From sequence record FJ373894: a stretch of DNA of 64,000 bases; one strand, given 5' to 3'. Below are positions 853-40,846 of this stretch, piece after piece. A program made the translations under genes and the position numbers. This DNA is from Shigella phage Ag3. Below the pieces are notes generated by a model. The model worked only from the letters and a program-made list of their open reading frames with translations. It did not search any database and was not told the origin of the DNA. Each line of letters starts with the position of its first letter. Positions within the stretch are counted from its first letter, which is position 1.

Positions 853-881
853 GTGTCGTACTGCTTATGGAATGAAGTATA
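853..881. repeat. 29-bp direct repeat (copy 1) of early-promoter cassette
   Basis: gtgtcgtactgcttatggaatgaagtata is identical at 853-881 and 36499-36527. Confidence 0.7.
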
Positions 882-922
882 GGGAAGGATATTGAAGAAG
901 TAAAGGGGCGTTTGCCCCTTTT
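876..922 (-). promoter_or_regulatory. early promoter fused to stem-loop (PeSL-like): -35 TTTACT, 17 bp, -10 TATACT
   Basis: Minus-strand TTTACT-N17-TATACT (plus 876-904) overlapping hairpin GGGGC-GTTT-GCCCC (905-918); upstream of gene 552..827. Confidence 0.6.
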
Positions 923-15741: not shown

Positions 15742-15794
15742 GATATAGTCCTGCTTTCAAACAGGCGGGAACTATTCCCGCCCCAGAATTTGAA

Positions 15795-15822
15795 TTATAC
15801 GTGAGTTATTGAAGAAGTAAAC
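15795..15822 (-). promoter_or_regulatory. early promoter: -35 GTTTAC, 16 bp, -10 TATAAT
   Basis: Minus-strand GTTTAC-N16-TATAAT; T4-early/sigma70-like; upstream of gene starting 15741. Confidence 0.6.
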
Positions 15823-16170: not shown

Positions 16171-16218
16171 ATAATAGCGGGTGTTTATCTAAAGTAAAGC
16201 CCCAACAAATGTTGGGGC
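16171..16218 (-). promoter_or_regulatory. early promoter fused to stem-loop (PeSL-like): -35 CTTTAC, 17 bp, -10 TATTAT
   Basis: Hairpin GCCCCAACAAATGTTGGGGC (16199-16218) overlaps -35; upstream of gene starting 16122 and downstream of ACP-like gene. Confidence 0.55.
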
Positions 16219-32730: not shown

Positions 32731-33182
32731 CAGGAACCATCCATATATTTTCGCCAATCGATGGCATTCTTCACTTCGTATCCCAGCTTGTTCAGGCGAT
32801 CCAAACAAGTCTCGATGAACTTGACTTTTGCTTTTTGTTCTTGTAACAGAACAGACAGTTCTACATAGTCATCGTCGGCTTTGACCCATGTGTCCAGGTC
32901 AGACTTCAGGGGGCGAACCTTCAGGGGGCGCTCTGCGTAGATGTTCGGGGGTAACTCCCCTGCGTAGTAGCGGCGCAGATAGAGATCGATCTGGCGGAAG
33001 CGCCCGTTGAGGAATTCAAGATAACGCCCCTCACGCAGATAATGCCGTTGTACGGCCATCCAAGAGCGCCCGATTTTCAGTGAGATCTGGTCAAGGTTCA
33101 TGTCTTCTGGGTCCACTGTAATCAGCGGCTCCAGTTCGTTCATGATGTCCTCGGTTGCCATTGTCTGTAGTTGTTCTTTCAT
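32730..33182 (-). CDS. uvsY: recombination mediator UvsY-like
   Basis: Size, position next to uvsW, and C-terminal pattern alignable to T4 UvsY. Confidence 0.6.
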   Translation of the reverse strand: MKEQLQTMATEDIMNELEPLITVDPEDMNLDQISLKIGRSWMAVQRHYLREGRYLEFLNGRFRQIDLYLRRYYAGELPPNIYAERPLKVRPLKSDLDTWVKADDDYVELSVLLQEQKAKVKFIETCLDRLNKLGYEVKNAIDWRKYMDGS

Positions 33183-33224
33183 AAAATATCCCAGCTTGTC
33201 AATGTCATAGAATTATACCGTATT

Positions 33225-33725
33225 TCATGGATTAGAATCAATCACCTTCCCACCAGATAGTGGGACCAGCTGCTGGAACTTGAACGTCACTGTCGTCACC
33301 AGCTGAGGTACAGCCGCATCCACGTCCACCAGTACGTTGTCCAGAGCAGTCGGACGGGCTTCCTCCAGCACGAGAGTGAGGCCAATCGGTCGGTTGAGGT
33401 TATCCAGTAATTCAATGGTAATGTCCTTGGAGACAGCCAAATCCTTGCCGACGTTGCTGGTGATCCATTGGTGGATCTGTAACCATGATTTCCAGTCCTC
33501 GTCTATAACGAAAGTAAATACGACGGGATCATAGGTTAAACGTTCTGAAGGGATAGAAACCAGTACGTCGCCAGGAGACGGACCATCGATGCCTTCAGAG
33601 TATACTCCTGGTATACTGAAGTCGTGGATGTTACGGGTTAGGAGTACAAGGTCTCCGATAGTCAGACGCCACTTATCGGACGCCGCGAAATTAGGGTTTT
33701 CGTTCTTGAATTGTACGTCGGACAT
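33225..33725 (-). CDS. tail-tube-family protein (gp19/gp48/gp54-like paralogue)
   Basis: IPSERLTYDPVVFTFVIDEDWKSWLQIHQW follows the gp19-type motif also present in this window's gp19. Confidence 0.45.
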   Translation of the reverse strand: MSDVQFKNENPNFAASDKWRLTIGDLVLLTRNIHDFSIPGVYSEGIDGPSPGDVLVSIPSERLTYDPVVFTFVIDEDWKSWLQIHQWITSNVGKDLAVSKDITIELLDNLNRPIGLTLVLEEARPTALDNVLVDVDAAVPQLVTTVTFKFQQLVPLSGGKVIDSNP

Positions 33726-33754
33726 AATAGCACCTTTTGCTGTGGAGATATTTT

Positions 33755-34405
33755 GTGACCCTGATGCGCGGGATCAGTAGATTGTTGTTGGCATGCGCGA
33801 TGCTCTTGCTTACGAGCTGTCGCATCTTTGTCACGCCAATAATTTCTGTTTCCGAACTCTGGAACCCAGAAGTACGCACCGTACCCGTGACGTTGTCGGC
33901 CAGTGTTCCTACTTGTAACAAGGGTATGCTGGACATCATCGTGCAAGAGTTCCAGACCTTTCAGAAGCTCGTGCCTTTGGGTTGCTTCGAGGAGAACACG
34001 AGCACCCTCAAGCCATACTGGAAGACCACGATTCCCCTCCTGCGTCGTGGCGATGAAGGGAAGATTCCATACCTATCAGCAAGTATTTATTACTCTCAGA
34101 ACAACAGCATCATCATCACTTTTAATCCATCATTCTACGCCAAGCTGAAGCAACACATGGTTGGGCGACTGAGTGAAACGTCGGATATAATCGTGACGTT
34201 CAAGATCATGAATGACTCAGACAAGCCAGTACGAATCGCAACTCAGGGTGTGTTTGTCAACAACGATGCTGTTGGGAATGAGATGAACATCTTCGAAGTT
34301 AACCCAGGGGGGACGATCTGGATTAGACTGAGTAATGTGGGTGTGAACTCCCTACTGTTGGATGGCATCGAACCAGTGGGAGTTCTTCCGGCGCGGGAGC
34401 GCTGA
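33755..34405 (+). CDS. putative lipoprotein (plus strand)
   Basis: GTG 33755 or ATG 33764 with GGAG RBS; MRGISRLLLACAMLLLTSC signal with lipobox. Confidence 0.5.
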   Translation: MTLMRGISRLLLACAMLLLTSCRIFVTPIISVSELWNPEVRTVPVTLSASVPTCNKGMLDIIVQEFQTFQKLVPLGCFEENTSTLKPYWKTTIPLLRRGDEGKIPYLSASIYYSQNNSIIITFNPSFYAKLKQHMVGRLSETSDIIVTFKIMNDSDKPVRIATQGVFVNNDAVGNEMNIFEVNPGGTIWIRLSNVGVNSLLLDGIEPVGVLPARER

Positions 34406-34406
34406 A

Positions 34407-35135
34407 TTACTTCAGCGCGCTCTTCAGATTATCAGAACCGATGTTGTTGATAACGCCACCAGCACACAGGTCTTTAGCCCACTCAGACAGTACATTGGCG
34501 AACGAGAAGTTCAGACACTTGCTGACCATGTCTTGGATGTGGGCTAACTCTGAGGCAATACCATTGGCGATATCCTGACCGATTTGCGCCACCTGAGCAA
34601 TAGCATCGTTGATGTATCCGGTAACTTCGGCGGCCAGCGCCTGGATCTTTGCCAGGCCAGCGCTCACACCCTGCGCAACTAACTCAGCCAGTTCGGCCAT
34701 CTTGGCAGTAACAGTGCTGAGAGCGCCCTCCATAGCCCCGATCCACTGGCGCCCAAGAGTCTGTATGACGCCGAAGGCATTGTTGATCAGATCACAGTTG
34801 GTCGGCTCGCGCTCGATTGACTTCAGGCCAGATTTGTACGACACGGAAGTCCCGATGCGGGAATACGCTTCGTTCACAGTCTGATCACCATAGTTGTTCA
34901 GTGTGGTGAGGCTGGTGTCGGCAGAGGTGAACATCGTGTTCGTTTCATTGAGTTTGGCTGTGGTTAGACCACCTGCCGTCAGAGCGCCCTGGATTTGCGT
35001 ATTTCCGGTGTTTGCCAGTGCAGCTGTAGTCGCCTTGCCGCTGGTGATTAAACCCTGAGACGTGCTGCTGAGGGACGGGAGAGGATTGTTAAATGCGTTA
35101 CCCTGCTCAAGGGCGTCATAGATCTGTGCGTTCAT
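34407..35135 (-). CDS. late protein, probable virion/structural (Ala/Thr/Gln-rich)
   Basis: Start at 35135 (MNAQIYD...); CTAAATACCCCC late motif about 25 nt upstream. Confidence 0.5.
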   Translation of the reverse strand: MNAQIYDALEQGNAFNNPLPSLSSTSQGLITSGKATTAALANTGNTQIQGALTAGGLTTAKLNETNTMFTSADTSLTTLNNYGDQTVNEAYSRIGTSVSYKSGLKSIEREPTNCDLINNAFGVIQTLGRQWIGAMEGALSTVTAKMAELAELVAQGVSAGLAKIQALAAEVTGYINDAIAQVAQIGQDIANGIASELAHIQDMVSKCLNFSFANVLSEWAKDLCAGGVINNIGSDNLKSALK

Positions 35136-35156
35136 AGAAAATACCCCCATGGATGA

Positions 35157-35169
35157 TGGGGGTATTTAG
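35157..35169 (-). promoter_or_regulatory. late promoter motif CTAAATACCCCC inside a hairpin
   Basis: Upstream of late protein starting 35135; motif is one arm of palindrome AAATACCCCCAT-GGATG-ATGGGGGTATTT. Confidence 0.5.
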
Positions 35170-35382
35170 GTGATCATGGCAGTTTGTAAACGAAGTTGGA
35201 CCAGAACTTCCGAGCGAACTTCTTGGCATAGACCTTCCAGTCGGCGTATTCGCCCTCCTTCAGGTCGTTGTAGGTCTCGAACCCTACTGCTCCCAGGAAG
35301 TACGCCGTGAAGATATAGCAGAACAGATTGACGACAAACATGATGTATCTCCGCTGTGTGAACTCAAATTATTTATGGTATG

Positions 35383-35805
35383 TTACAAAAGGCGCTTGGT
35401 CTTCGGCTTGCCCATCAGTGTGATGTCCACAGGGAGGCCAGCTTTCTTGCAACGGTTGATCATGTCCAGGGTGCCAGTGGACGAACCATCCCACATCGCA
35501 ATCGGATACACTTCCAGCTTGGTCTGCCTGACGAGATCCAATGCCTTGTCTAACATGTCCTGATTGCGTTTGTTGCCCATCCCTTTCCCATACTTTTCAT
35601 AATAGCTCGGAGGGATTGGCATAGGAGTGATATGAACATAATTGATTTCAGCCCAATCACGGCAAATCGTGTCGACACCCGTGGCCTCACCCTCGATCAA
35701 CGTATAGACTTCATGAGGATCGAGGAGTTCGTCCAGCTTGGCGAATACCTTATCCCGCTCGGTGATTGAGCGGGAACCTGTAACGAGTACGATATATTTC
35801 TTCAT
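35383..35805 (-). CDS. SLOG/DUF2493-like Rossmann-fold protein
   Basis: MKKYIVLVTGSRS N-terminal motif; start moved to 35805. Confidence 0.5.
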   Translation of the reverse strand: MKKYIVLVTGSRSITERDKVFAKLDELLDPHEVYTLIEGEATGVDTICRDWAEINYVHITPMPIPPSYYEKYGKGMGNKRNQDMLDKALDLVRQTKLEVYPIAMWDGSSTGTLDMINRCKKAGLPVDITLMGKPKTKRLL

Positions 35806-35810
35806 GGAAC

Positions 35811-36131
35811 TCACAGCGCCCCAAGATTGCCGATGACATACAGGGAGCACAGAGGAGTGCCTGACGAACGGGGTTCGATTGTCATCCCGCTCAGGCGGAT
35901 CAGTTCCAGTAAGCCGTCAGTGGTTTGATACGCGCGTGTCGAACCGTTCGGGCGATAAAGCTCCAGCTCGGTTCTTCCTTCCTTTAATGCATTACGGATA
36001 CGAGCGAACACACTGTGGTCGCCGAACTTCTGTTTCAGAAGGTCCAGCTTGGTGACCAGTCGACGACGCGATTTGCGCGCACGAGGGTTCTCTTTTACGA
36101 CCGCTTCTAAAATTGGGATGCTGTTAGCCAT
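35811..36131 (-). CDS. hypothetical protein
   Basis: 106-codon ORF. Confidence 0.45.
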   Translation of the reverse strand: MANSIPILEAVVKENPRARKSRRRLVTKLDLLKQKFGDHSVFARIRNALKEGRTELELYRPNGSTRAYQTTDGLLELIRLSGMTIEPRSSGTPLCSLYVIGNLGAL

Positions 36132-36190
36132 GATAAAGTCCTCTATTTGTAGGGGATAGGGTATGCGGTTAACATACCCCGTTCAAAGGT

Positions 36191-36472
36191 TTAGAACAAA
36201 TGCTCGCCTTCCACATGGTATGCTAACACGCCGTCAGAACATTCAAAATACATGTTATCATATTCCCACAGAGCGGTGATTTCTTCACCCTGGCAAACTA
36301 CCGAAAACTTCGGCTGGCTGGCCTTAACTGGAAATTTTTCAGGGGAAGAGATTGGGGTGAATTTGGCATTTCTGACGGCCATACCAACAAATTGCTGCAA
36401 TGTTACTTTGTAACGAGAGTGGGTGATAGTACCAGCATTCAGAGCTTCGATCAATTGCGCTTTAGTTGTCAT
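36191..36472 (-). CDS. hypothetical protein
   Basis: Start after GGAACTATATC; early promoter 36522-36550 upstream. Confidence 0.5.
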   Translation of the reverse strand: MTTKAQLIEALNAGTITHSRYKVTLQQFVGMAVRNAKFTPISSPEKFPVKASQPKFSVVCQGEEITALWEYDNMYFECSDGVLAYHVEGEHLF

Positions 36473-36498
36473 GATATAGTTCCTTCATTTCAGAGTCA

Positions 36499-36527
36499 GT
36501 GTCGTACTGCTTATGGAATGAAGTATA
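36499..36527. repeat. 29-bp direct repeat (copy 2) of early-promoter cassette
   Basis: Identical to 853-881. Confidence 0.7.
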
Positions 36528-36557
36528 CGGGGTTTATTGAAGAAGTAAACCCCGTAT
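36522..36557 (-). promoter_or_regulatory. early promoter fused to stem-loop (PeSL-like): -35 GTTTAC, 17 bp, -10 TATACT
   Basis: Perfect hairpin ATACGGGGTTTA/TAAACCCCGTAT contains -35; upstream of gene starting 36472. Confidence 0.6.
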
Positions 36558-36574
36558 TCAACTTTTTATTGAAT

Positions 36575-36811
36575 TTATTTAAAACGGTCAGGAAGGGTGT
36601 CGTGCAGTTCAGCTGACAGCACCAAGAACTTACCATCCGTCGTTGGGAAGCAATAGTCTTTATTGATGTGACGCAAGTGTTCAGCTACAGCTGCCACGCA
36701 GTCATCTGTCACGTCGGTCTTCTCACCAACCCACATGCTGGTTTTGGTGTTCAGCCTACCCTGGAATATAGTACCAGTCAGAGGGCTTGCGCCGATCTTT
36801 TTGATAATCAT
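36575..36811 (-). CDS. hypothetical protein
   Basis: 78-codon ORF. Confidence 0.4.
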   Translation of the reverse strand: MIIKKIGASPLTGTIFQGRLNTKTSMWVGEKTDVTDDCVAAVAEHLRHINKDYCFPTTDGKFLVLSAELHDTLPDRFK

Positions 36812-36819
36812 GTTTGACC

Positions 36820-37260
36820 TCAGTTAATGCGGAACAGATGTGGATAACCACCAGGATGACCCTGACCCGTAACGAACACGTCGAACTTCGAACCCTTGAT
36901 CAGGCCAGGCAGATTGCCAGAGTCCAGCAGTTCTCGGATCTGATCCATCGCCAGCATCCAGTTCTTAGCAGGTTCAGCTTCAGCCTCTCCACGATTGAGG
37001 ACGAGTTCACCTTCAGAATAATACTTCCCGCTGTCCTTCATGTAGTACAGCTTGATATGGATATACTGAGGGGATGGGACCAAACGCCAGCCGTCATCAA
37101 TCAGATCCTGGCGATCATTATCCAGGGACTGGTAATCGATCTCACCAGACGCCAGACCATAGCTGCGCATGTAGCGGAACTTCTCAACACGGTCTTTCAC
37201 GTCAGAGATGAAGAACTCCTTCGTGGCAGGACTGATGAAAATGTATTTCTCTTTTGACAT
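36820..37260 (-). CDS. hypothetical protein
   Basis: Start after AGGATCTATATC variant. Confidence 0.5.
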   Translation of the reverse strand: MSKEKYIFISPATKEFFISDVKDRVEKFRYMRSYGLASGEIDYQSLDNDRQDLIDDGWRLVPSPQYIHIKLYYMKDSGKYYSEGELVLNRGEAEAEPAKNWMLAMDQIRELLDSGNLPGLIKGSKFDVFVTGQGHPGGYPHLFRIN

Positions 37261-37272
37261 GATATAGATCCT

Positions 37273-37500
37273 TCAGTTCAAAATGGGATGTTCGTCGATA
37301 TCGGACTGCGTTGCAATCTCCCAGCGGACGATGTTCTCGGTTGTGATGAAATCACGGTTCAGGTGAGAGGCTGGCACATACACCATCGTGTCGACCATGA
37401 AGTAACGCTGCTCGTTGTTCCAGGAGTCAACGTAAGCCTCAATGAGGCATACTTCGATCACTTCGCCTTTCGGCTTCTTCACAGTCTTTTTCAGGTACAT
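37273..37500 (-). CDS. hypothetical protein
   Basis: Start moved to 37500 (GAGG RBS); track N-terminus lies in a terminator hairpin. Confidence 0.4.
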   Translation of the reverse strand: MYLKKTVKKPKGEVIEVCLIEAYVDSWNNEQRYFMVDTMVYVPASHLNRDFITTENIVRWEIATQSDIDEHPILN

Positions 37501-37560
37501 GACGCAGCCCTCGGATAGTAGACGGGGCAATAATACCTCTCGCCCCGTTATTGAAAACTG

Positions 37561-37761
37561 TTATCCTTCTTGTTCTTCCCAACCCCATTCATCTTCCCAA
37601 GACTGGCGAGGGGTCTTGCCCGCTTCGTAATCATCACGCCATGCGTCGGCGTCGGCGGCTGAACCACCCTGGCTTTTCGCGACTTTGCACAATACGTCGT
37701 GCCACTCACGGAAGGTGGAGTTGGCGACTGTGGTGTTTACAGAATCTTCTTTCAGGCTCAT
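37561..37761 (-). CDS. hypothetical acidic Trp-rich protein
   Basis: Start moved to 37761 (GAGGAA RBS). Confidence 0.4.
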   Translation of the reverse strand: MSLKEDSVNTTVANSTFREWHDVLCKVAKSQGGSAADADAWRDDYEAGKTPRQSWEDEWGWEEQEG

Positions 37762-37820
37762 TGTGATTTCCTCGATTAATAGAGAGGGTAATAATACCCT
37801 CATGCAATCTTTGAAACTCT

Positions 37821-38153
37821 TTATCCAGCCAAAGTCATATTCTGGGAACCAACCCCATCTTCACATTCTGGATGACATGAAGTGCCCAGTTTTTCATGGA
37901 TTACATCCAGATGGGTAAAGATAGCGTCGATGATATCGTCTTGGTCAGACTGGACGTCAATCACCAAGCCGACCAGACCAGGCGCGGCCATTTCTTTATC
38001 TTCACCTTTCTGAGTGGTTGGGTAATCACCGTCGAGTTGGATACGGATGTTTCTGATATTGGTGAGGAGGTTGCACAAACGCTCTTTATGAGAACGAGCA
38101 TTGACCAGAATTTGGGACACGGATTGTGTTGGTGATACGAGGTTACTTGACAT
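37821..38153 (-). CDS. hypothetical protein
   Basis: Start moved to 38153 (AGGAG RBS). Confidence 0.4.
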   Translation of the reverse strand: MSSNLVSPTQSVSQILVNARSHKERLCNLLTNIRNIRIQLDGDYPTTQKGEDKEMAAPGLVGLVIDVQSDQDDIIDAIFTHLDVIHEKLGTSCHPECEDGVGSQNMTLAG

Positions 38154-38245
38154 GATTTGTACTCCTGTTGTATGGTTGACTGTACAAGCATACAACAGGC
38201 AGGTGTATTGAACAACGCGGGTATTAAATCGACACGATAAAGGAA

Positions 38246-38473
38246 TTAACTCGGAATGTGTCTAGCGATCTTCTTGTTGATGTCGTCTAGCAGAATACTC
38301 ATCGTATCTTTGTAGACCTCTACAGCCAATATCGATTTGGAATTCATGAATGAGCTGAAGATACCAGATTTCAAACGCCTCAACTCCTTTTCCGCTTCTT
38401 CAATCTGTCCCATGATGTATTTCTTCGCGCCCTGTAGCTCTATAGCACGGATGTCTATTTCTTTATCGTTCAT
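38246..38473 (-). CDS. hypothetical protein
   Basis: Start moved to 38473; first gene after the gp23 terminator. Confidence 0.4.
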   Translation of the reverse strand: MNDKEIDIRAIELQGAKKYIMGQIEEAEKELRRLKSGIFSSFMNSKSILAVEVYKDTMSILLDDINKKIARHIPS

Positions 38474-38517
38474 GATGGCCTCCAATTAGTTTGGCACATC
38501 ATATAGCGAATCCCCAT

Positions 38518-38546
38518 AATGAAAAACCCCGCCGAAGCGGGGTTTT
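38518..38546 (-). terminator. rho-independent terminator after gp23
   Basis: AAAACCCCGC-cgaa-GCGGGGTTTT followed by TTTTTC; strongest hairpin in window. Confidence 0.8.
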
Positions 38547-38565
38547 GTAGGACCAGCCTGTTGGA

Positions 38566-39888
38566 TTAGAACAGACCTTTGATCAGACCTTTACGGAAGT
38601 AAGGGTTGCTGTCCTGAGCGATACCATCGGCAGTCACGTAAACCTGTGGGTCCTGGTTCGCTGGGATCTGTACGAATGGGTTCGCGCAGATGCCGTAACG
38701 AGTTTTGAACGCCATACGTGGGCTGAAGGTGGTTTCACCCTGGGTGCGGTACATTTCCAGCGGTACATACGGCGCGAAGAAGATACCAGCATCCAGCGCG
38801 GTCGCGCCTTTGTATGCCAGGGTGATGTACTCTGCTACTGCATACGGGTCGATGTAAACGCGCATGCCGTTAGACAGAACACCAGCGAAGGTCTGACCAG
38901 TTGGGTCAATCGCCAGCTTGGTGTTTTCCTGTAGCGCCGGGGCGTAATCCAGCATGCCGGACATCGCCAGAGCAGATGCTACGTTCGGAGAACACAGAAC
39001 ACGGTTGCCTTTACCACGACGGGTGTCAACACCGATGCCGTTCGCTTCAACTTCCAGCATGAAAGTCATGTACTTCCATTTTTCCAGCGCCCAACGACCG
39101 GAGATGTCGGTGGAGATGTCTACAACGCCGTTTGCGCCGAATTTTTTGAAGCGTACTGCACTGAAGTTCATGGTACGGATGAACTCACGGTTCATTTCCG
39201 CCTGAATTTCAGTTACCATCACGTCGGACAGGATGCTGTCAACGTCTTCGCCGTGGATCGCCATCATGTCCTGGCGCAGTTCATGGCTGTAGTCAGCGTA
39301 CAGGCCACGAGACTTCGCAGTCACGGTTGCTTTCTGAACGGTGATACCAACACGTGCCCATGGGTTGGTGGTGGTGCCCAGCAGTTCAGCGTCGGTGGTT
39401 GGCATGCCTTTACCGATGGTGGTCACGCCAGCGCCGGAACCTTCGATCTCGGCCTGAGTAAAGCCAGATGGATCGCCAGCCTGTACAGTACCGTCACCAG
39501 AGTAGCCGGAATCAGCTTCCTGCATGAACAGTTCTTTACGGGACTGTTGGGTGTTGGATGAGTCGCCGACGCCCTGGCGAGCACGCAGAGCAAAGATCTG
39601 ACCGTCAGGACCAGACAGCGGCTGCACGCCGAAGAAGTCCATCGCGATGTTGATCGGAGCCAGACGTTTTGCCATGTCGATCAGGACTGGCTGCCATTTG
39701 CCCACAGAGTTGTTCACAGAACCAGGAGCGTCAGATTCGCCCAGGTTTTTGGCGTTCCACTCAGCCTGGTTTTGCAGCAGGCGGACAGCAACGTTTTCGG
39801 CAGAAAGCGGCTGGATACTTTCAGATTCTTTCTGAAGAACTGGCAGCCACTGCTCGCGCATTTGTTCGGTAACAAGTTTCTTAGCCAT
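38566..39888 (-). CDS. 23: major capsid protein gp23
   Basis: FGVQPLSGPDGQIFALRA, AGVLSNGMRVYIDPYA, TLAYKGATALDAGIFFAPYVPL, MAFKTRYGI align to T4 gp23; start at second ATG (39888) by RBS spacing. Confidence 0.95.
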   Translation of the reverse strand: MAKKLVTEQMREQWLPVLQKESESIQPLSAENVAVRLLQNQAEWNAKNLGESDAPGSVNNSVGKWQPVLIDMAKRLAPINIAMDFFGVQPLSGPDGQIFALRARQGVGDSSNTQQSRKELFMQEADSGYSGDGTVQAGDPSGFTQAEIEGSGAGVTTIGKGMPTTDAELLGTTTNPWARVGITVQKATVTAKSRGLYADYSHELRQDMMAIHGEDVDSILSDVMVTEIQAEMNREFIRTMNFSAVRFKKFGANGVVDISTDISGRWALEKWKYMTFMLEVEANGIGVDTRRGKGNRVLCSPNVASALAMSGMLDYAPALQENTKLAIDPTGQTFAGVLSNGMRVYIDPYAVAEYITLAYKGATALDAGIFFAPYVPLEMYRTQGETTFSPRMAFKTRYGICANPFVQIPANQDPQVYVTADGIAQDSNPYFRKGLIKGLF

Positions 39889-39979
39889 GATGGTCATTCC
39901 TTACATTGATATTCAGTTAAGTTGAAATTACTTAGTAGTTCAAAATCAAGCCCCCTTTCGAGGGCTGTGGCTGCTAAAA

Positions 39980-40846
39980 TTAGCCGTTGATGCCGAAGCG
40001 ACGATTATAGTCGGCCAACTGACGCTTGATAGATTCTTTCAGCTCTTTGTCTGTTTCATCTTCATCGTCTTTGCCATCGTCGTCGTCATCGCCTTCTTTC
40101 TTAGACTTTTTGCCTTCGTCGACTTTGTCTTTGTCGCCTTTGTTGTCGTCGTCACCGTCTTTGCCGCCGACTTTGTCCTGGAAGTCATCGTCATCGCCTT
40201 CTTTCTTCGCGGACTTACCTTCTACCAGGTTGCGGAAGGTGTGTACGCGGGAAGCGAATTCGCTTTCGGTGGTGAACTGCACCGCTTCCAGCAGATTGAC
40301 AACCGTTGCTTTCTTGGTGTCGACCATGCCTTCACAGATACGGGCGATCACAGAGTCGCGCAGAGTCGCATTCGCGGCTTCTTTGATTTGACGGTTTTCG
40401 CTTTCAGCAGCCGCAGCGCGTTGTTCTGCTTCGGTCAGGCGGGCAGTCAGCGCAGCGATCTGGCCGTTTTCGTCAGTCGCAAAGTTGATACCAGCTTCTT
40501 TCAGAACGCCAGTCAGGCCAGTCAGCAGGTTTTCAGCTGCTTCACGCTTGATCTGAGCATCGATTGCAGGAGCGTTGGTGTTAGCCCACTCTTCTACAAC
40601 AGCGTTCAGGAAGCTGTCAACTTTGGTTGCGATCTCCATCAAGTGAGACTCTTTCAGCTGAGCAATCTCAGACTGATGAGCTTCAACCAGACGCAGGCGC
40701 TCGACGTTGGCAGCGTTTTCGGTTTCTTGAATAGCGGTCAGGCGAGCGGCTTCTACTTTAGATTCCAGCAGACCAGACACTTTATCCAGGAAGTCGGTGC
40801 TGAGGCCGTTAACGCCCTCAAACAGTTTTTGCAATTCAGGTTTCAT
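39980..40846 (-). CDS. 22: prohead core scaffold protein gp22
   Basis: Acidic, coiled-coil, poly-D/K tail; position between gp21 and gp23. Confidence 0.8.
   Translation of the reverse strand: MKPELQKLFEGVNGLSTDFLDKVSGLLESKVEAARLTAIQETENAANVERLRLVEAHQSEIAQLKESHLMEIATKVDSFLNAVVEEWANTNAPAIDAQIKREAAENLLTGLTGVLKEAGINFATDENGQIAALTARLTEAEQRAAAAESENRQIKEAANATLRDSVIARICEGMVDTKKATVVNLLEAVQFTTESEFASRVHTFRNLVEGKSAKKEGDDDDFQDKVGGKDGDDDNKGDKDKVDEGKKSKKEGDDDDDGKDDEDETDKELKESIKRQLADYNRRFGING

What the first reader, a model, noticed from the sequence alone, without database searches (positions are those of the whole stretch)
35383..38473. Early-gene island where T4 has gp24 downstream of gp23
After the gp23 terminator there is no gp24 (vertex) homologue in this window; instead nine small genes follow, with their own early promoter (36522-36557) and short terminator hairpins. 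One encodes a SLOG/DUF2493-like protein, a fold common in nucleotide-signalling and counter-defence contexts.
Basis: partly seen in the sequence, partly recalled or inferred. Interest (0 to 1): 0.4.

Follow-up and report, generated by a model that had tools for sequence, protein, structure and literature searches.

The report
Accessory-gene island after phage capsid gene
This is the usual block of small, non-structural "accessory" genes that all ViI-like (Ackermannviridae) phages carry after their major capsid gene; the missing T4 vertex gene (gp24) is a trait of the whole family, so the finding is real but ordinary.

Summary
The window is an Agtrevirus-like Ackermannviridae genome, 96% identical to Shigella phage MK-13. 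A strong terminator follows gp23. One gene is a SLOG/DUF2493 (Pfam YAcAr) protein. No gp23/gp24 paralogue exists in the window, in the complete MK-13 genome, or in any listed Ackermannviridae record.

None of this is special to this genome. The same island lies between gp23 and the gp3/UvsY genes in four genera and about 290 public genomes. Virion proteomics of two relatives found essentially none of its products. Loss of gp24 is already known from cyanophages and ΦM9.

The "early promoter" at 36522-36549 is well supported. It is TTTACT-N16-TATACT inside a stretch of about 88 bp that differs at only 3-5 positions across four genera. It belongs to a dispersed promoter family (4 copies in the window, 7 in MK-13). 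It marks gene-replacement boundaries, like the PeSL promoter/stem-loop cassettes of T4-type phages.

No putative late-promoter box (ACTAAWTA/CTAAATA) lies upstream of any of the ten island genes; the nearest one sits in the closing hairpin and faces g11.

Protein functions remain unknown. Early timing is inferred, not shown.

The parts
38566..39897 (-). gp23 major capsid protein (443 aa), upstream boundary of the island
   Evidence: T4 gp23 chains at 1e-63; 100% identical to the MK-13 MCP.
38523..38546 (-). Intrinsic terminator after gp23: 10-bp G+C-rich stem, TTCG loop, T-run
   Evidence: (I9). The stem is invariant in five phages of four genera.
38498..38525 (-). Weak sigma-70-like site (TTTTCA-N16-TATGAT) that overlaps the terminator's T-run; candidate promoter for g1-g6
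   Evidence: 9/12. Relatives have TATAAT or GATAAT at the same place, and Magnus carries the full TTTACTTCTTCAATA cassette here.
38246..38473 (-). g1, 75 aa, helical. Variable slot: present only in MK-13-like phages
   Evidence: No Pfam, PHROG or NCBIfam hit.
38164..38199 (-). 15-bp hairpin whose 3' arm overlaps the g2 Shine-Dalgarno sequence
   Evidence: (I1).
37821..38153 (-). g2, 110 aa, acidic, phrog_6238
37784..37801 (-). 7-bp intergenic hairpin between g2 and g3
   Evidence: I22; z -4.1.
37561..37761 (-). g3, 66 aa, acidic and Trp-rich, phrog_519
37522..37557 (-). Hairpin (7-bp stem seed, 37522-37548) with an overlapping promoter-like site TTTTCA-N16-TATTAT (37530-37557)
   Evidence: (I24).
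37273..37500 (-). g4, 75 aa, phrog_7113
36820..37260 (-). g5, 146 aa, phrog_4181. Confident fold with no solved relative. Mosaic: 99% to Limestonevirus RC-2014 but 68% to MK-13
   Evidence: pLDDT 93.5; best PDB E 0.26.
36575..36811 (-). g6, 78 aa, DUF7446. The most conserved island protein (82-91% identical to the window protein across the four genera compared)
   Evidence: (PF24233, 2.5e-29).
36473..36574 (-). Conserved regulatory cassette: AT-rich upstream tract, 12-bp hairpin (36525-36557), TTTACT-N16-TATACT promoter (36522-36549), ~50-nt leader, GAAGGAACTATATC ribosome site
   Evidence: I4; nearly invariant in four genera. It is the gene-replacement and indel boundary.
36191..36472 (-). 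g7, 93 aa, phrog_10263. Variable slot directly behind the cassette
   Evidence: It is replaced in CBA120 and Magnus, and MK-13 has an extra 88-aa gene here.
36159..36179 (-). Intergenic hairpin between g7 and g8
   Evidence: (I23).
35811..36131 (-). g8, 106 aa, basic (pI 10.3), phrog_4663
35383..35805 (-). g9, 140 aa, SLOG-superfamily protein (Pfam YAcAr, formerly DUF2493). Starts 5 nt after the g8 stop
35174..35341 (-). g10, 55 aa, hydrophobic N-terminus, phrog_4845.
35139..35169 (-). 12-bp hairpin plus T-run that closes the island (35139-35167). Its 5' arm holds a CTAAATA late-type box (35163-35169). Its 3' arm holds the only purine-rich run before the g11 start codon
   Evidence: I5; z -4.4; invariant in five phages.
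34407..35135 (-). g11, 242 aa, DUF7217. A virion protein in relatives and not part of the island (downstream boundary)
   Evidence: 25.1 kDa, matching LIMEstone1 ORF129 at 25.03 kDa. Sajous1 gp166 gave 8 spectra.

Best explanation
The region is the standard accessory-gene block (a 'hyperplastic region') that Ackermannviridae phages keep between the capsid gene gp23 and the gp3/UvsY/UvsW genes.

It holds ten small genes for non-virion proteins in two transcription units, set off from the late capsid operon by the strong gp23 terminator.
- Unit A is g1-g6 (38473-36575). It has only a weak sigma-70-like site that overlaps the terminator's T-run.
- Unit B is g7-g10 (36472-35174) and includes the SLOG gene. 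It is driven by a strong promoter of T4-early type, read by the host sigma-70 polymerase: TTTACTTCTTCAATA-N7-TATACT at 36549-36522. It ends at the hairpin at 35139-35167.

That promoter is part of a stretch of about 88 bp (hairpin + promoter + leader + ribosome site) that is repeated around the genome. Because it is nearly identical between genera, it serves as a recombination site at which the downstream gene is swapped, gained or lost. This is how the PeSL cassettes of T4-type phages behave.

The proteins most likely act inside the infected cell early in infection, in host takeover or counter-defence. The SLOG protein most likely binds a nucleotide or a nucleotide-derived ligand.

The missing gp24 is unrelated to the island. 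The family has only one gp23-type gene, so the eleven non-portal vertices are presumably made of gp23 pentamers, as proposed for ΦM9 and the cyanophages.

What is shown: the gene layout, the family-wide conservation, the absence of gp24, the SLOG fold, the motif family and its position at indel boundaries, and the absence of island products from virions.

What is inferred: early timing, promoter activity, the recombination role, the protein functions and the gp23 pentons.
For: Identity and synteny.

No gp24:
- No paralogue in the window or in the whole MK-13 genome.
- Sensitivity control: the same query finds T4 gp24.
- No relic in the island DNA.
- One gp23-like place in every listed Ackermannviridae record.

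Non-structural products:
- LIMEstone1 virion mass spectrometry lists ORF127, 129 and 138 but none of ORF130-137.
- Sajous1 lists gp157 at 924 spectra, gp166 and gp168 at 8 each, and only one spectrum for any of gp158-165.

Promoter:
- The pattern TTTACW-N16-TAYWMT occurs 3 times against 0.05 expected.
- The 15-mer TTTACTTCTTCAATA occurs 3 times against 0.10 expected.
- Four intergenic, co-oriented copies lie in the window and seven in MK-13.
- From the hairpin to the start codon the element differs at 3 positions (CBA120) to 5 positions (Magnus) in four genera, while the flanking coding DNA is 79-83% identical.
- It fits the published T4/PST PeSL promoter consensus TTTACW-N17-TAYWAT (PMC4122927).

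Recombination role:
- The MK-13 extra gene is bounded by a repeat of the ribosome-site end of the cassette.
- A different gene follows the cassette in CBA120, Magnus and MK-13.
- Identity to MK-13 steps from 98.8% to 94.5% exactly at the cassette.
- g5 is mosaic.
- In Magnus the cassette sits right after the gp23 terminator.

Not late: ACTAAWTA gives 8 hits against 1.67 expected, all upstream of structural genes and none in 35200-38560.

SLOG.
Against: - No transcript, promoter-activity or expression-timing data exist for any Ackermannviridae phage in the searchable library.
- The island runs in the same direction as the late capsid operon, so read-through late transcription cannot be excluded.
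- The late-promoter motif used as a negative marker is my own inference from eight sites.
- The promoter lies inside a stable hairpin (-18.5 kcal/mol). That hairpin could equally be mainly a terminator or an RNA-stability element.
- The other intergenic hairpins do not have a consistent promoter geometry (my reading).
- No compensatory base changes were seen in any hairpin; only the loops vary.
- Nine of the ten proteins have no functional annotation in any library.
- The SLOG model is closest to the ssDNA-binding protein DprA, not to ligand-sensing SLOG domains.
Confidence: 0.72

Rival explanations
1. The island is transcribed late, by read-through from the capsid operon. It encodes small morphogenetic or capsid-accessory factors, including something that takes over the vertex role of gp24 (a penton cap or cement protein).
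For: - Same strand and immediate adjacency to gp20-gp23.
- ΦM9, which also lacks gp24, shows extra helical density capping its pentons (PMC4621102).
- g1 is small and looks helical from its sequence (no structure was predicted for it).
- The island is bounded downstream by a virion protein, DUF7217, and by gp3.
Against: - A strong, invariant terminator separates gp23 from the island.
- No late-type box lies upstream of any island gene.
- Two virion proteomes lack the island products: LIMEstone1 has none, and Sajous1 has one spectrum for one protein.
- g1 and g7 are not conserved across genera, which does not fit a structural role.
- There is no similarity to gp23/gp24.
Confidence: 0.08
2. The g7-g10 unit is an immediate-early counter-defence module. 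The SLOG protein (g9) sequesters or degrades a nucleotide-derived immune signal (for example ADP-ribose-derived or cyclic-nucleotide messengers), and g8 and g10 act as partners.
For: - g9 belongs to the YAcAr family, above Pfam's cut-off.
- It has an invariant Gly-rich loop plus R12, D45, R80-N81 and G111-T112.
- Comparative genomics predicts that viral YAcAr SLOG domains use NAD+ or bind nucleotide derivatives (PMC7824862).
- The gene sits behind the strongest conserved early-type promoter.
- The family is widespread in phages and giant viruses.
Against: - No experimental function for any YAcAr protein turned up in the single full-text search made for the family, which surfaced only a comparative-genomics prediction.
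- The best solved fold matches are DprA (ssDNA binding) and the defence protein ShosA. No ThsA or LOG chain appears among the top 50 PDB matches.
- There are no fused or neighbouring Macro, Nudix or NADAR domains.
- The gene is core to the family rather than variable, which is unusual for anti-defence genes, though not exclusive.
Confidence: 0.12
3. The conserved stretch at 36473-36574 is mainly an RNA-level element (a terminator or processing site plus a translational leader, or a small RNA). Its conservation reflects RNA function, not promoter or recombination function.
For: - The hairpin is very stable (-18.5 kcal/mol, z -5.4).
- Conservation runs through the whole ~50-nt leader to the start codon, not only the two promoter hexamers.
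- Most intergenic gaps of 40 bp or more in the island carry a hairpin.
Against: - No Rfam family matches.
- The leader alone does not fold better than shuffles (z -1.1).
- Other copies of the family keep the -35, spacer and -10 sequence but replace the hairpin with a different stem placed upstream of the -35. What is shared is therefore the promoter, not the hairpin.
- No U-run follows the stem.
Confidence: 0.08

Closest known systems
The gp23-to-gp3/UvsY accessory block of other Ackermannviridae (CBA120 orf173-185, Magnus gp158-170, RC-2014 0094-0102, MK-13 gp170-180)
   Same: - Same position, strand and order.
- g4, g5, g6, g8, g9 and g10 are shared by all four genera compared. g2 is shared too, although its Magnus match is only 22% identical. 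g3 is absent from RC-2014.
- The gp23 terminator, the promoter cassette and the closing hairpin are nearly identical.
   Different: - Content of the two variable slots: g1 and g7 here. Elsewhere these hold other ORFans, an extra 88-aa gene, or NUMOD3, HNH or other homing endonucleases or a methyltransferase.
- g5 here is the Limestonevirus allele, not the Agtrevirus MK-13 allele.
T4 gene 23 - segD - gene 24 - rnlB - 24.2 - 24.3 - hoc - inh - uvsW - uvsY region (Straboviridae)
   Same: - Flanking synteny gp20-21-22-23 ... uvsW/uvsY.
- The space after gp23 is a site for mobile and accessory genes: segD in T4, and homing endonucleases in several Ackermannviridae.
   Different: - T4 has the gp23 paralogue gp24 here, and this family has none anywhere.
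- hoc and inh are not here; an Ig-domain Hoc-like gene lies elsewhere in MK-13.
- None of the ten island proteins matched a T4-named family.
PeSL (promoter-early stem-loop) cassettes of T4-type phages (Arbiol et al. 2010, PMC2839356; Comeau et al. 2014, PMC4122927)
   Same: - Composite stem-loop plus sigma-70-type early promoter.
- The consensus TTTACW-N17-TAYWAT reported for T4/PST fits.
- Multiple dispersed copies.
- Located at indel and replacement boundaries between relatives.
   Different: - A different phage family; no paper in the library links PeSLs with Ackermannviridae.
- The conserved unit is longer, at about 88 bp, and includes the leader and ribosome site.
- In the island copy the stem encloses the -35 and spacer instead of preceding the promoter.
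- Promoter activity is untested.
gp24-less members of the T4 superfamily (marine cyanomyoviruses; Sinorhizobium phage ΦM9; T4 bypass-24 mutants)
   Same: A single gp23-type capsid gene and no vertex paralogue. gp23 is presumed to fill the pentons.
   Different: No capsid structure of an Ackermannviridae phage is in the PDB copy: the best hits for this gp23 are T4-type chains at about 1e-63. The penton composition here is therefore inferred. That T4 bypass-24 mutants exist is from my own knowledge.
YAcAr / DUF2493 family of the SLOG superfamily (Pfam PF10686)
   Same: - Pfam hit above the cut-off.
- Rossmann-like alternating strand-helix fold from the AF2 secondary-structure string.
- Conserved TGSR, GxAxGxD and GT motifs.
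- Many viral relatives by fold.
   Different: - A short stand-alone form with a conserved basic C-terminal tail, KPKTKRLL.
- No function is known for the family.
- The database label 'GTP-binding domain' is unsupported: no Walker A motif is visible in the sequence.

Membership tests
gp24 capsid vertex protein (gp23 paralogue, Pfam Gp23 family) | A second ORF with detectable similarity to gp23/gp24 | tested here: not met
   - phmmer and hmmsearch --max with window gp23, T4 gp23, T4 gp24 and a joint profile found only gp23. The targets were all ORFs of at least 50 aa in the window and in the complete MK-13 genome.
- A lenient tblastn on 33000-38570 gave nothing better than E 0.24 over 22 aa.
- Control: window gp23 finds T4 gp24 at 2e-8.
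gp24 capsid vertex protein (gp23 paralogue, Pfam Gp23 family) | Present in virions as a second abundant head protein of about 40-46 kDa encoded next to gp23 | tested here: not met
   Published virion proteomes of LIMEstone1 and Sajous1 list no island product, apart from one spectrum for Sajous1 gp160.
Ackermannviridae post-gp23 accessory block | Same position between gp23 and DUF7217/gp3/UvsY, same strand, with shared gene families | tested here: met
   Annotated regions of MK-13, CBA120, Magnus and RC-2014, plus all-against-all BLASTP.
PeSL-type promoter/stem-loop cassette | Sigma-70-type promoter with the T4-type -35 (TTTACW) and a TAYWAT -10 at 16-17 nt spacing | tested here: met
   The site at 36549-36522 is TTTACT-N16-TATACT. 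The -10 departs from TAYWAT at one position (C for A). The consensus is taken from PMC4122927.
PeSL-type promoter/stem-loop cassette | G+C-rich stem-loop joined to the promoter | tested here: met
   12-bp stem at 36525-36557. The other copies have a stem abutting the -35. The geometry of the island copy differs, because its stem encloses the -35.
PeSL-type promoter/stem-loop cassette | Several dispersed copies, intergenic and co-oriented with the downstream gene | tested here: met
   Four copies in the window and seven in MK-13. The 15-mer is enriched, 3 against 0.10 expected.
PeSL-type promoter/stem-loop cassette | Lies at insertion, deletion or replacement boundaries between related genomes | tested here: met
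   - The MK-13 extra gene is bounded by a repeat of the cassette's ribosome-site end.
- Different genes follow the cassette in CBA120, Magnus and MK-13.
- Identity steps at the cassette.
PeSL-type promoter/stem-loop cassette | Active as an early promoter during infection | not testable with these tools
   No transcriptome of the family was found. This needs RNA-seq or a reporter assay.
SLOG superfamily, YAcAr/DUF2493 family (PF10686) | Profile match above the curated threshold | tested here: met
   43.1 bits against a cut-off of 28.2, E 3.6e-11. All but three of the 35 homologues (P0026, P0029 and P0033) carry PF10686.
SLOG superfamily, YAcAr/DUF2493 family (PF10686) | Rossmann-like SLOG fold | tested here: met
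   AF2 pLDDT 92.9. Foldseek hits are DprA (TMq 0.66), ShosA, the Moco carrier protein and the TRPM2 N-terminal domain, plus DUF2493/YspA viral models.
SLOG superfamily, YAcAr/DUF2493 family (PF10686) | Binds a nucleotide or nucleotide-derived ligand | not testable with these tools
   Only conserved pocket-type residues can be shown. No ligand data exist.
Early (pre-replicative) gene class | Transcribed from host-sigma-70 promoters before DNA replication, without a late promoter | tested here: inconclusive
   A sigma-70-type family promoter is present. The putative late box ACTAAWTA/CTAAATA is absent upstream of every island gene. The late box is itself inferred, and read-through from gp23 is not excluded.

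The most novel reading that the evidence does not exclude
The most novel reading has two parts.

First, the stretch of about 88 bp at 36473-36560 is the long-sought early promoter of the ViI-like phages. The CBA120 authors reported that they could not find early promoters by informatics (PMC3184105). On this reading it also acts as a mobile recombination cassette that shuffles accessory genes between Ackermannviridae genera.

Second, the operon it drives here (g7-g10) would be an immediate-early counter-defence module. Its SLOG protein would intercept a nucleotide-derived immune signal, which would make it a new family of phage anti-defence protein.
Probability: 0.1. Interest if true: 0.6.

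Novelty: new member of a known kind. Interest (0 to 1): 0.2.

Why it matters
For the original claim, very little. The gp24-less layout and the block of small genes are present and annotated (as hypothetical proteins) in about 290 public Ackermannviridae genomes, and gp24 loss is an established theme in the T4 superfamily.

Two by-products have modest practical value.
- A concrete promoter consensus (AT-rich tract, TTTACTTCTTCAATA-N7/8-TATAMT) and a candidate late box (ACTAAWTA/CTAAATA). These matter for a phage family used in biocontrol and diagnostics whose transcription signals the CBA120 paper called unidentified.
- Evidence that PeSL-like cassettes operate outside the Straboviridae. This helps explain how these otherwise very uniform genomes exchange accessory genes, and it marks safe insertion points for engineering.

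The conserved SLOG protein and the confidently folded orphan g5 are reasonable targets for function screens.

Tried and rejected
- gp24 relic or pseudogene in the island: lenient tblastn (word size 2, E up to 100) found only noise.
- A non-homologous vertex candidate elsewhere. MK-13 gp069 is 371 aa, the size of the abundant unknown LIMEstone1 structural protein ORF81. It has no Pfam family and no profile similarity to gp23/gp24 (hhalign probability 0.07%). It lies outside the window and could not be submitted for structure prediction.
- The T4 late promoter TATAAATA occurs once in 64 kb, which is chance level. It was replaced by the ACTAAWTA/CTAAATA motif inferred from upstream regions.
- Rfam search of 33000-40200: only sub-threshold terminator look-alikes.
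- Pfam at E up to 1 and NCBIfam for the unannotated proteins: nothing credible.
- PDB profile search with the g5 alignment gave armadillo-repeat hits with no significant stretch. These come from one 17-residue LLDSGNLPGL motif and were rejected. Foldseek with the g5 model found no match.
- PDB profile search with the SLOG alignment: nothing significant, DprA at E about 1.
- Literature searches for Ackermannviridae transcriptomes, capsid cryo-EM, or any mention of gp24 or PeSLs in the family found nothing relevant.
- A uniform 'promoter in hairpin' architecture for all intergenic hairpins was rejected. Spacing fits only at 37530-37557 and 36522-36549 (my reading).
- T4 gp24 as a tblastn query does not appear to reach Ackermannviridae gp23 at E 1e-3. 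Salmonella is missing from the ten most frequent organism names in that search, against 203 Salmonella records when gp23 is the query. That search was therefore uninformative for this family, and the gp23 query was used instead.

Full report
**What the window is.** Region 35000-39900 matches 291 phage records. The best match is Shigella phage MK-13 (Ackermannviridae, Agtrevirus) at 95.9% identity over the full length. The annotated MK-13 region has the same layout on the same strand. In order it reads: portal, prohead core, protease, scaffold, major capsid protein, a run of small hypothetical genes, a 'GTP-binding domain' gene, a 55-aa gene, a 242-aa gene, an opposite-strand gene, a 166-aa gene, UvsY, exonuclease and UvsW. 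The window is therefore a ViI-like phage, not a T4-like (Straboviridae) phage.

**Checking the observation.** gp23 is at 38566-39897 on the minus strand. Its best solved relatives are T4-type gp23 chains at about 1e-63. Twenty bases after its stop codon lies AAAACCCCGC-TTCG-GCGGGGTTTT followed by more T (38523-38546). This hairpin is invariant in MK-13, RC-2014, CBA120 and Magnus except for the loop in Magnus.

With start codons corrected against the annotated relatives, exactly nine genes lie between 38473 and 35383 (g1-g9). Eight match PHROG families of unknown function. g6 is DUF7446 and g9 is PF10686 YAcAr, the former DUF2493, at 43.1 bits against a cut-off of 28.2. All have recognisable ribosome-binding sequences, or, for g9, a start 5 nt after the preceding stop.

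g10 (35174-35341, 55 aa, hydrophobic N-terminus) follows g9. Only after g10 comes a terminator-type hairpin (35139-35167).

**gp24.**
- phmmer with window gp23 against all stop-to-stop ORFs of at least 50 aa in the window finds only gp23 itself.
- I rebuilt the complete 158,755-bp MK-13 genome from four fetched pieces. I searched its ORFs with window gp23, T4 gp23, T4 gp24 (taken from NC_000866) and a joint profile, all with --max. Again only gp23 is found.
- The search is sensitive enough, because window gp23 detects T4 gp24 chains in the PDB at 2e-8.
- A very lenient tblastn finds no relic in 33000-38570.
- In a tblastn of window gp23 against 50,697 phage records, every listed Ackermannviridae record has one place. 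This includes distant relatives at 64-66% identity (Vibrio K445, Aeromonas phiA8-29). Many T4-like records have two places.

The trait is family-wide and has precedents. gp24 is absent from all cyanomyoviruses (PMC2984593). It is also absent from Sinorhizobium phage ΦM9, where the penton subunit is inferred to be gp23 (PMC4621102). No Ackermannviridae capsid is in the PDB copy, so gp23 pentons here remain an inference.

**The island is a fixed feature of the family, with variable slots.** CBA120 (Kuttervirus), Magnus (Taipeivirus) and RC-2014 (Limestonevirus) all have the same block between gp23 and DUF7217/gp3/UvsY. All-against-all BLASTP shows the following.
- g4, g5, g6, g8, g9, g10 and the flanking g11 are in all four genera. 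g2 also has a match in all four, but its Magnus match is only 22% identical.
- g3 is absent from RC-2014.
- g1 occurs only in MK-13-like phages. Its slot is filled elsewhere by unrelated ORFans or by a NUMOD3 homing endonuclease. Other relatives have HNH or other homing endonucleases, or a methyltransferase, there.
- g7 is replaced in CBA120 and Magnus.
- g5 is 99% identical to the Limestonevirus allele but only 68% to MK-13, so the region is mosaic.

Published virion proteomes do not contain the island products. LIMEstone1 lists ORF127 (gp3, 18.5 kDa), ORF129 (25.03 kDa, matching g11 at 25.1 kDa) and ORF138 (gp23), but none of ORF130-137. Sajous1 lists gp157 (MCP, 924 spectra), gp166 and gp168 (8 each), and only one spectrum for one of gp158-165. 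The island therefore encodes non-structural proteins.

**The 'early promoter'.** The generic scan gives TTTACT-N16-TATACT at 36549-36522 (9/12). It also shows that such sites are no more frequent in the region than in shuffles, and that the site coincides with a 33-nt perfect hairpin. Three further lines of evidence make it credible.

1. Conservation. From the hairpin to the start codon (about 88 bp), the sequence differs at 3 positions in CBA120 and 5 in Magnus. The adjacent g6 coding DNA is 83% and 79% identical in those phages, and the downstream gene is unrelated there.
2. It is one of a family.
   - The pattern TTTACW-N16-TAYWMT occurs 3 times against 0.05 expected.
   - The 15-mer TTTACTTCTTCAATA occurs 3 times against 0.10 expected.
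   - A slightly relaxed pattern finds four minus-strand intergenic copies in the window (36549, 16198, 15821, 904) and one intragenic false hit. It finds seven in MK-13, all intergenic and co-oriented with the next gene.
   - The copies share an AT-rich upstream tract, the -35 and spacer TTTACTTCTTCAATA, a TATACT/TATAAT/TATTAT -10, a ~50-nt leader and a GGAACTATATCATG start region. Most have a G+C stem-loop abutting the -35.
3. It fits the published PeSL promoter consensus for T4/PST, TTTACW-N17-TAYWAT (PMC4122927).

The exact extended pattern is found in IMG/VR in ten stretches. Nine lie on contigs of about 152-161 kb, the size of Ackermannviridae genomes, and one on a 5.9-kb fragment.

**Recombination role.**
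- MK-13 has an extra 88-aa gene directly behind the cassette. The insertion is bounded by a direct repeat of the cassette's ribosome-site end, TGAAGGAA(C/A)TA(T/C)ATCATG.
- Identity between the window and MK-13 steps from 98.8% to 94.5% exactly there.
- In Magnus a second copy of the cassette sits immediately after the gp23 terminator, in front of that phage's own first island gene.

This is the behaviour described for PeSLs, the composite terminator/promoter motifs that mediate modular shuffling in hyperplastic regions of T4-type phages (PMC2839356, PMC4122927). No paper in the library mentions PeSLs together with any Ackermannviridae term. The CBA120 paper states that early promoters could not be identified by informatics. 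The 2024 family review contains no mention of promoters or transcription.

**Timing.** Upstream regions of structural genes in the window share ACTAAATA or ACTAATTA about 30-40 nt before the start codon. The pattern ACTAAWTA gives 8 hits against 1.67 expected, all on the minus strand. CTAAATA gives 11 hits against 3.4 expected. None lies upstream of any of the ten island genes.

One CTAAATA lies at 35163-35169, in the 5' arm of the hairpin that closes the island, immediately upstream of g11. This junction, TAAATACCCCCA-loop-TGGGGGTATTTT-(C)TATG, is invariant in five phages. The only purine-rich run before the g11 start codon is inside the 3' arm.

By analogy with T4 genes e and soc (my own knowledge: early read-through transcripts hide the ribosome site in a hairpin, while late transcripts start inside it), I infer three roles for this hairpin. 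It terminates island transcription. It masks g11 translation on read-through RNA. It carries the late promoter for g11. The late box itself is my inference, and the T4 box TATAAATA occurs only once in the window.

Overall the data fit an early or host-polymerase-driven island bracketed by late genes. No expression data exist to confirm this.

**Other hairpins.** Six of the seven intergenic gaps of 40 bp or more in the island hold a stable hairpin: 38164-38199, 37784-37801, 37522-37548, 36525-36557, 36159-36179 and 35139-35167. The exception is the 41-bp gap between g9 and g10, which has none. Only two hairpins overlap a promoter-like site with acceptable spacing. In relatives the stems are kept and the loops vary. 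I saw no compensatory changes, so structural selection is suggested, not shown. Rfam finds nothing above threshold.

**The proteins.**
- g9. Its 35 homologues are essentially all from Ackermannviridae-sized contigs. G10, R12, G39, A41, G43, D45, R80, N81, G111, T112 and the C-terminal tail KPKTKRLL are invariant or nearly so. The AF2 model is confident, with pLDDT 92.9. The best solved matches are DprA (TMq 0.66), the defence protein ShosA, the Moco carrier protein and the TRPM2 SLOG domain. In the viral model library it matches many DUF2493/YspA proteins, from mycobacteriophages to giant viruses. Comparative genomics predicts NAD+ or nucleotide-derivative chemistry for viral YAcAr domains (PMC7824862), but I found no tested function. 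The RefSeq label 'GTP-binding domain' comes from phrog_289. That profile is a 500-column chimera covering both g9 and the 242-aa DUF7217. The sequence has no Walker A motif.
- g5. It folds confidently (pLDDT 93.5) but has no structural relative in the PDB (best E 0.26).
- The remaining proteins are small, mostly acidic (g8 is basic, pI 10.3) and unannotated.

**Verdict.** The interpretation that something unusual replaces gp24 is not supported. This is the ordinary, already sequenced and annotated accessory block of the Ackermannviridae. gp24 absence is a family trait of a kind already known elsewhere in the T4 superfamily.

The modestly new elements are the PeSL-like cassette family and the candidate late box in this phage family. 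Both are new members of known kinds, and both need transcript mapping to confirm.

Noticed in passing
window 876-904, 15794-15821 and 16171-16198 (all minus strand): Three further copies of the TTTACT...TATAMT promoter cassette. Each is intergenic and is followed by a ~50-nt leader and AGGAACTATATCATG. The copies at 904 and 16198 have a G+C stem-loop directly abutting the -35, which is the classic PeSL layout.
   Followed up: partly
window 2268, 40874, 43805, 44412, 46397, 50674, 57186 and 59078 (minus strand): ACTAAWTA occurs 8 times against 1.67 expected, all upstream of structural genes (scaffold, portal, tail tube, sheath and others). It is a candidate late-promoter box for this family, whose late motif the 2011 CBA120 paper called unidentified.
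   Followed up: partly
window 35139-35169: An invariant hairpin holds a CTAAATA late-type box in its 5' arm and the only Shine-Dalgarno-like run for g11 (DUF7217) in its 3' arm. This suggests a T4 gene e/soc-style switch in which only late transcripts allow translation.
   Followed up: partly
window 36820-37260 (g5): This gene is 99% identical at protein level to Limestonevirus RC-2014 but only 68% to the otherwise closest relative MK-13, which indicates inter-genus mosaicism. The protein has a confident AF2 fold with no PDB match.
   Followed up: yes
L001 10474-10897 (MK-13) against window 36472-36500: MK-13 carries an extra 88-aa gene (gp174; a homologue is in Klebsiella phage Magnus). The insertion is bounded by a ~20-bp direct repeat of the ribosome-site region, so it is a clean cassette-mediated indel.
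   Followed up: yes
window 35383-35805 and 34407-35135: PHROG 289 ('GTP-binding domain') is a 500-position profile that covers the SLOG protein at positions 7-146 and the unrelated DUF7217 virion protein at 259-500. It was probably built on a fused or mis-called ORF. The functional label that has spread into RefSeq annotations looks unfounded.
   Followed up: partly
window 35383-35410 (C-terminus of g9): The SLOG protein ends in a nearly invariant basic tail, G-KPKTKRL(L/I), which is predicted to be disordered (pLDDT 58). It may be a short docking motif for a partner.
   Followed up: no
slot after gp23 in relatives (L008 5280-6128; records): Several relatives carry a NUMOD3, HNH or other homing endonuclease, or a DNA methyltransferase, directly downstream of gp23. 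This echoes segD between genes 23 and 24 in T4. The window has no endonuclease there.
   Followed up: partly
L002 43946-45061 (MK-13 gp069, outside the window): A 371-aa protein with the mass of the abundant unknown LIMEstone1 virion protein ORF81 (40.85 kDa, 23 peptides). It has no Pfam family and no profile similarity to gp23/gp24. Its role in the virion is unexplained.
   Followed up: partly
window 33737-34405 (+) and 34399-34418: A DUF7424 gene on the opposite strand converges on g11. An 8-bp palindromic hairpin lies at the convergence point and looks like a bidirectional terminator.
   Followed up: no
window 38164-38199: A 15-bp hairpin between g1 and g2 has a 3' arm that runs into the g2 Shine-Dalgarno sequence (ACAGGAG). 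This may couple or mask translation.
   Followed up: no
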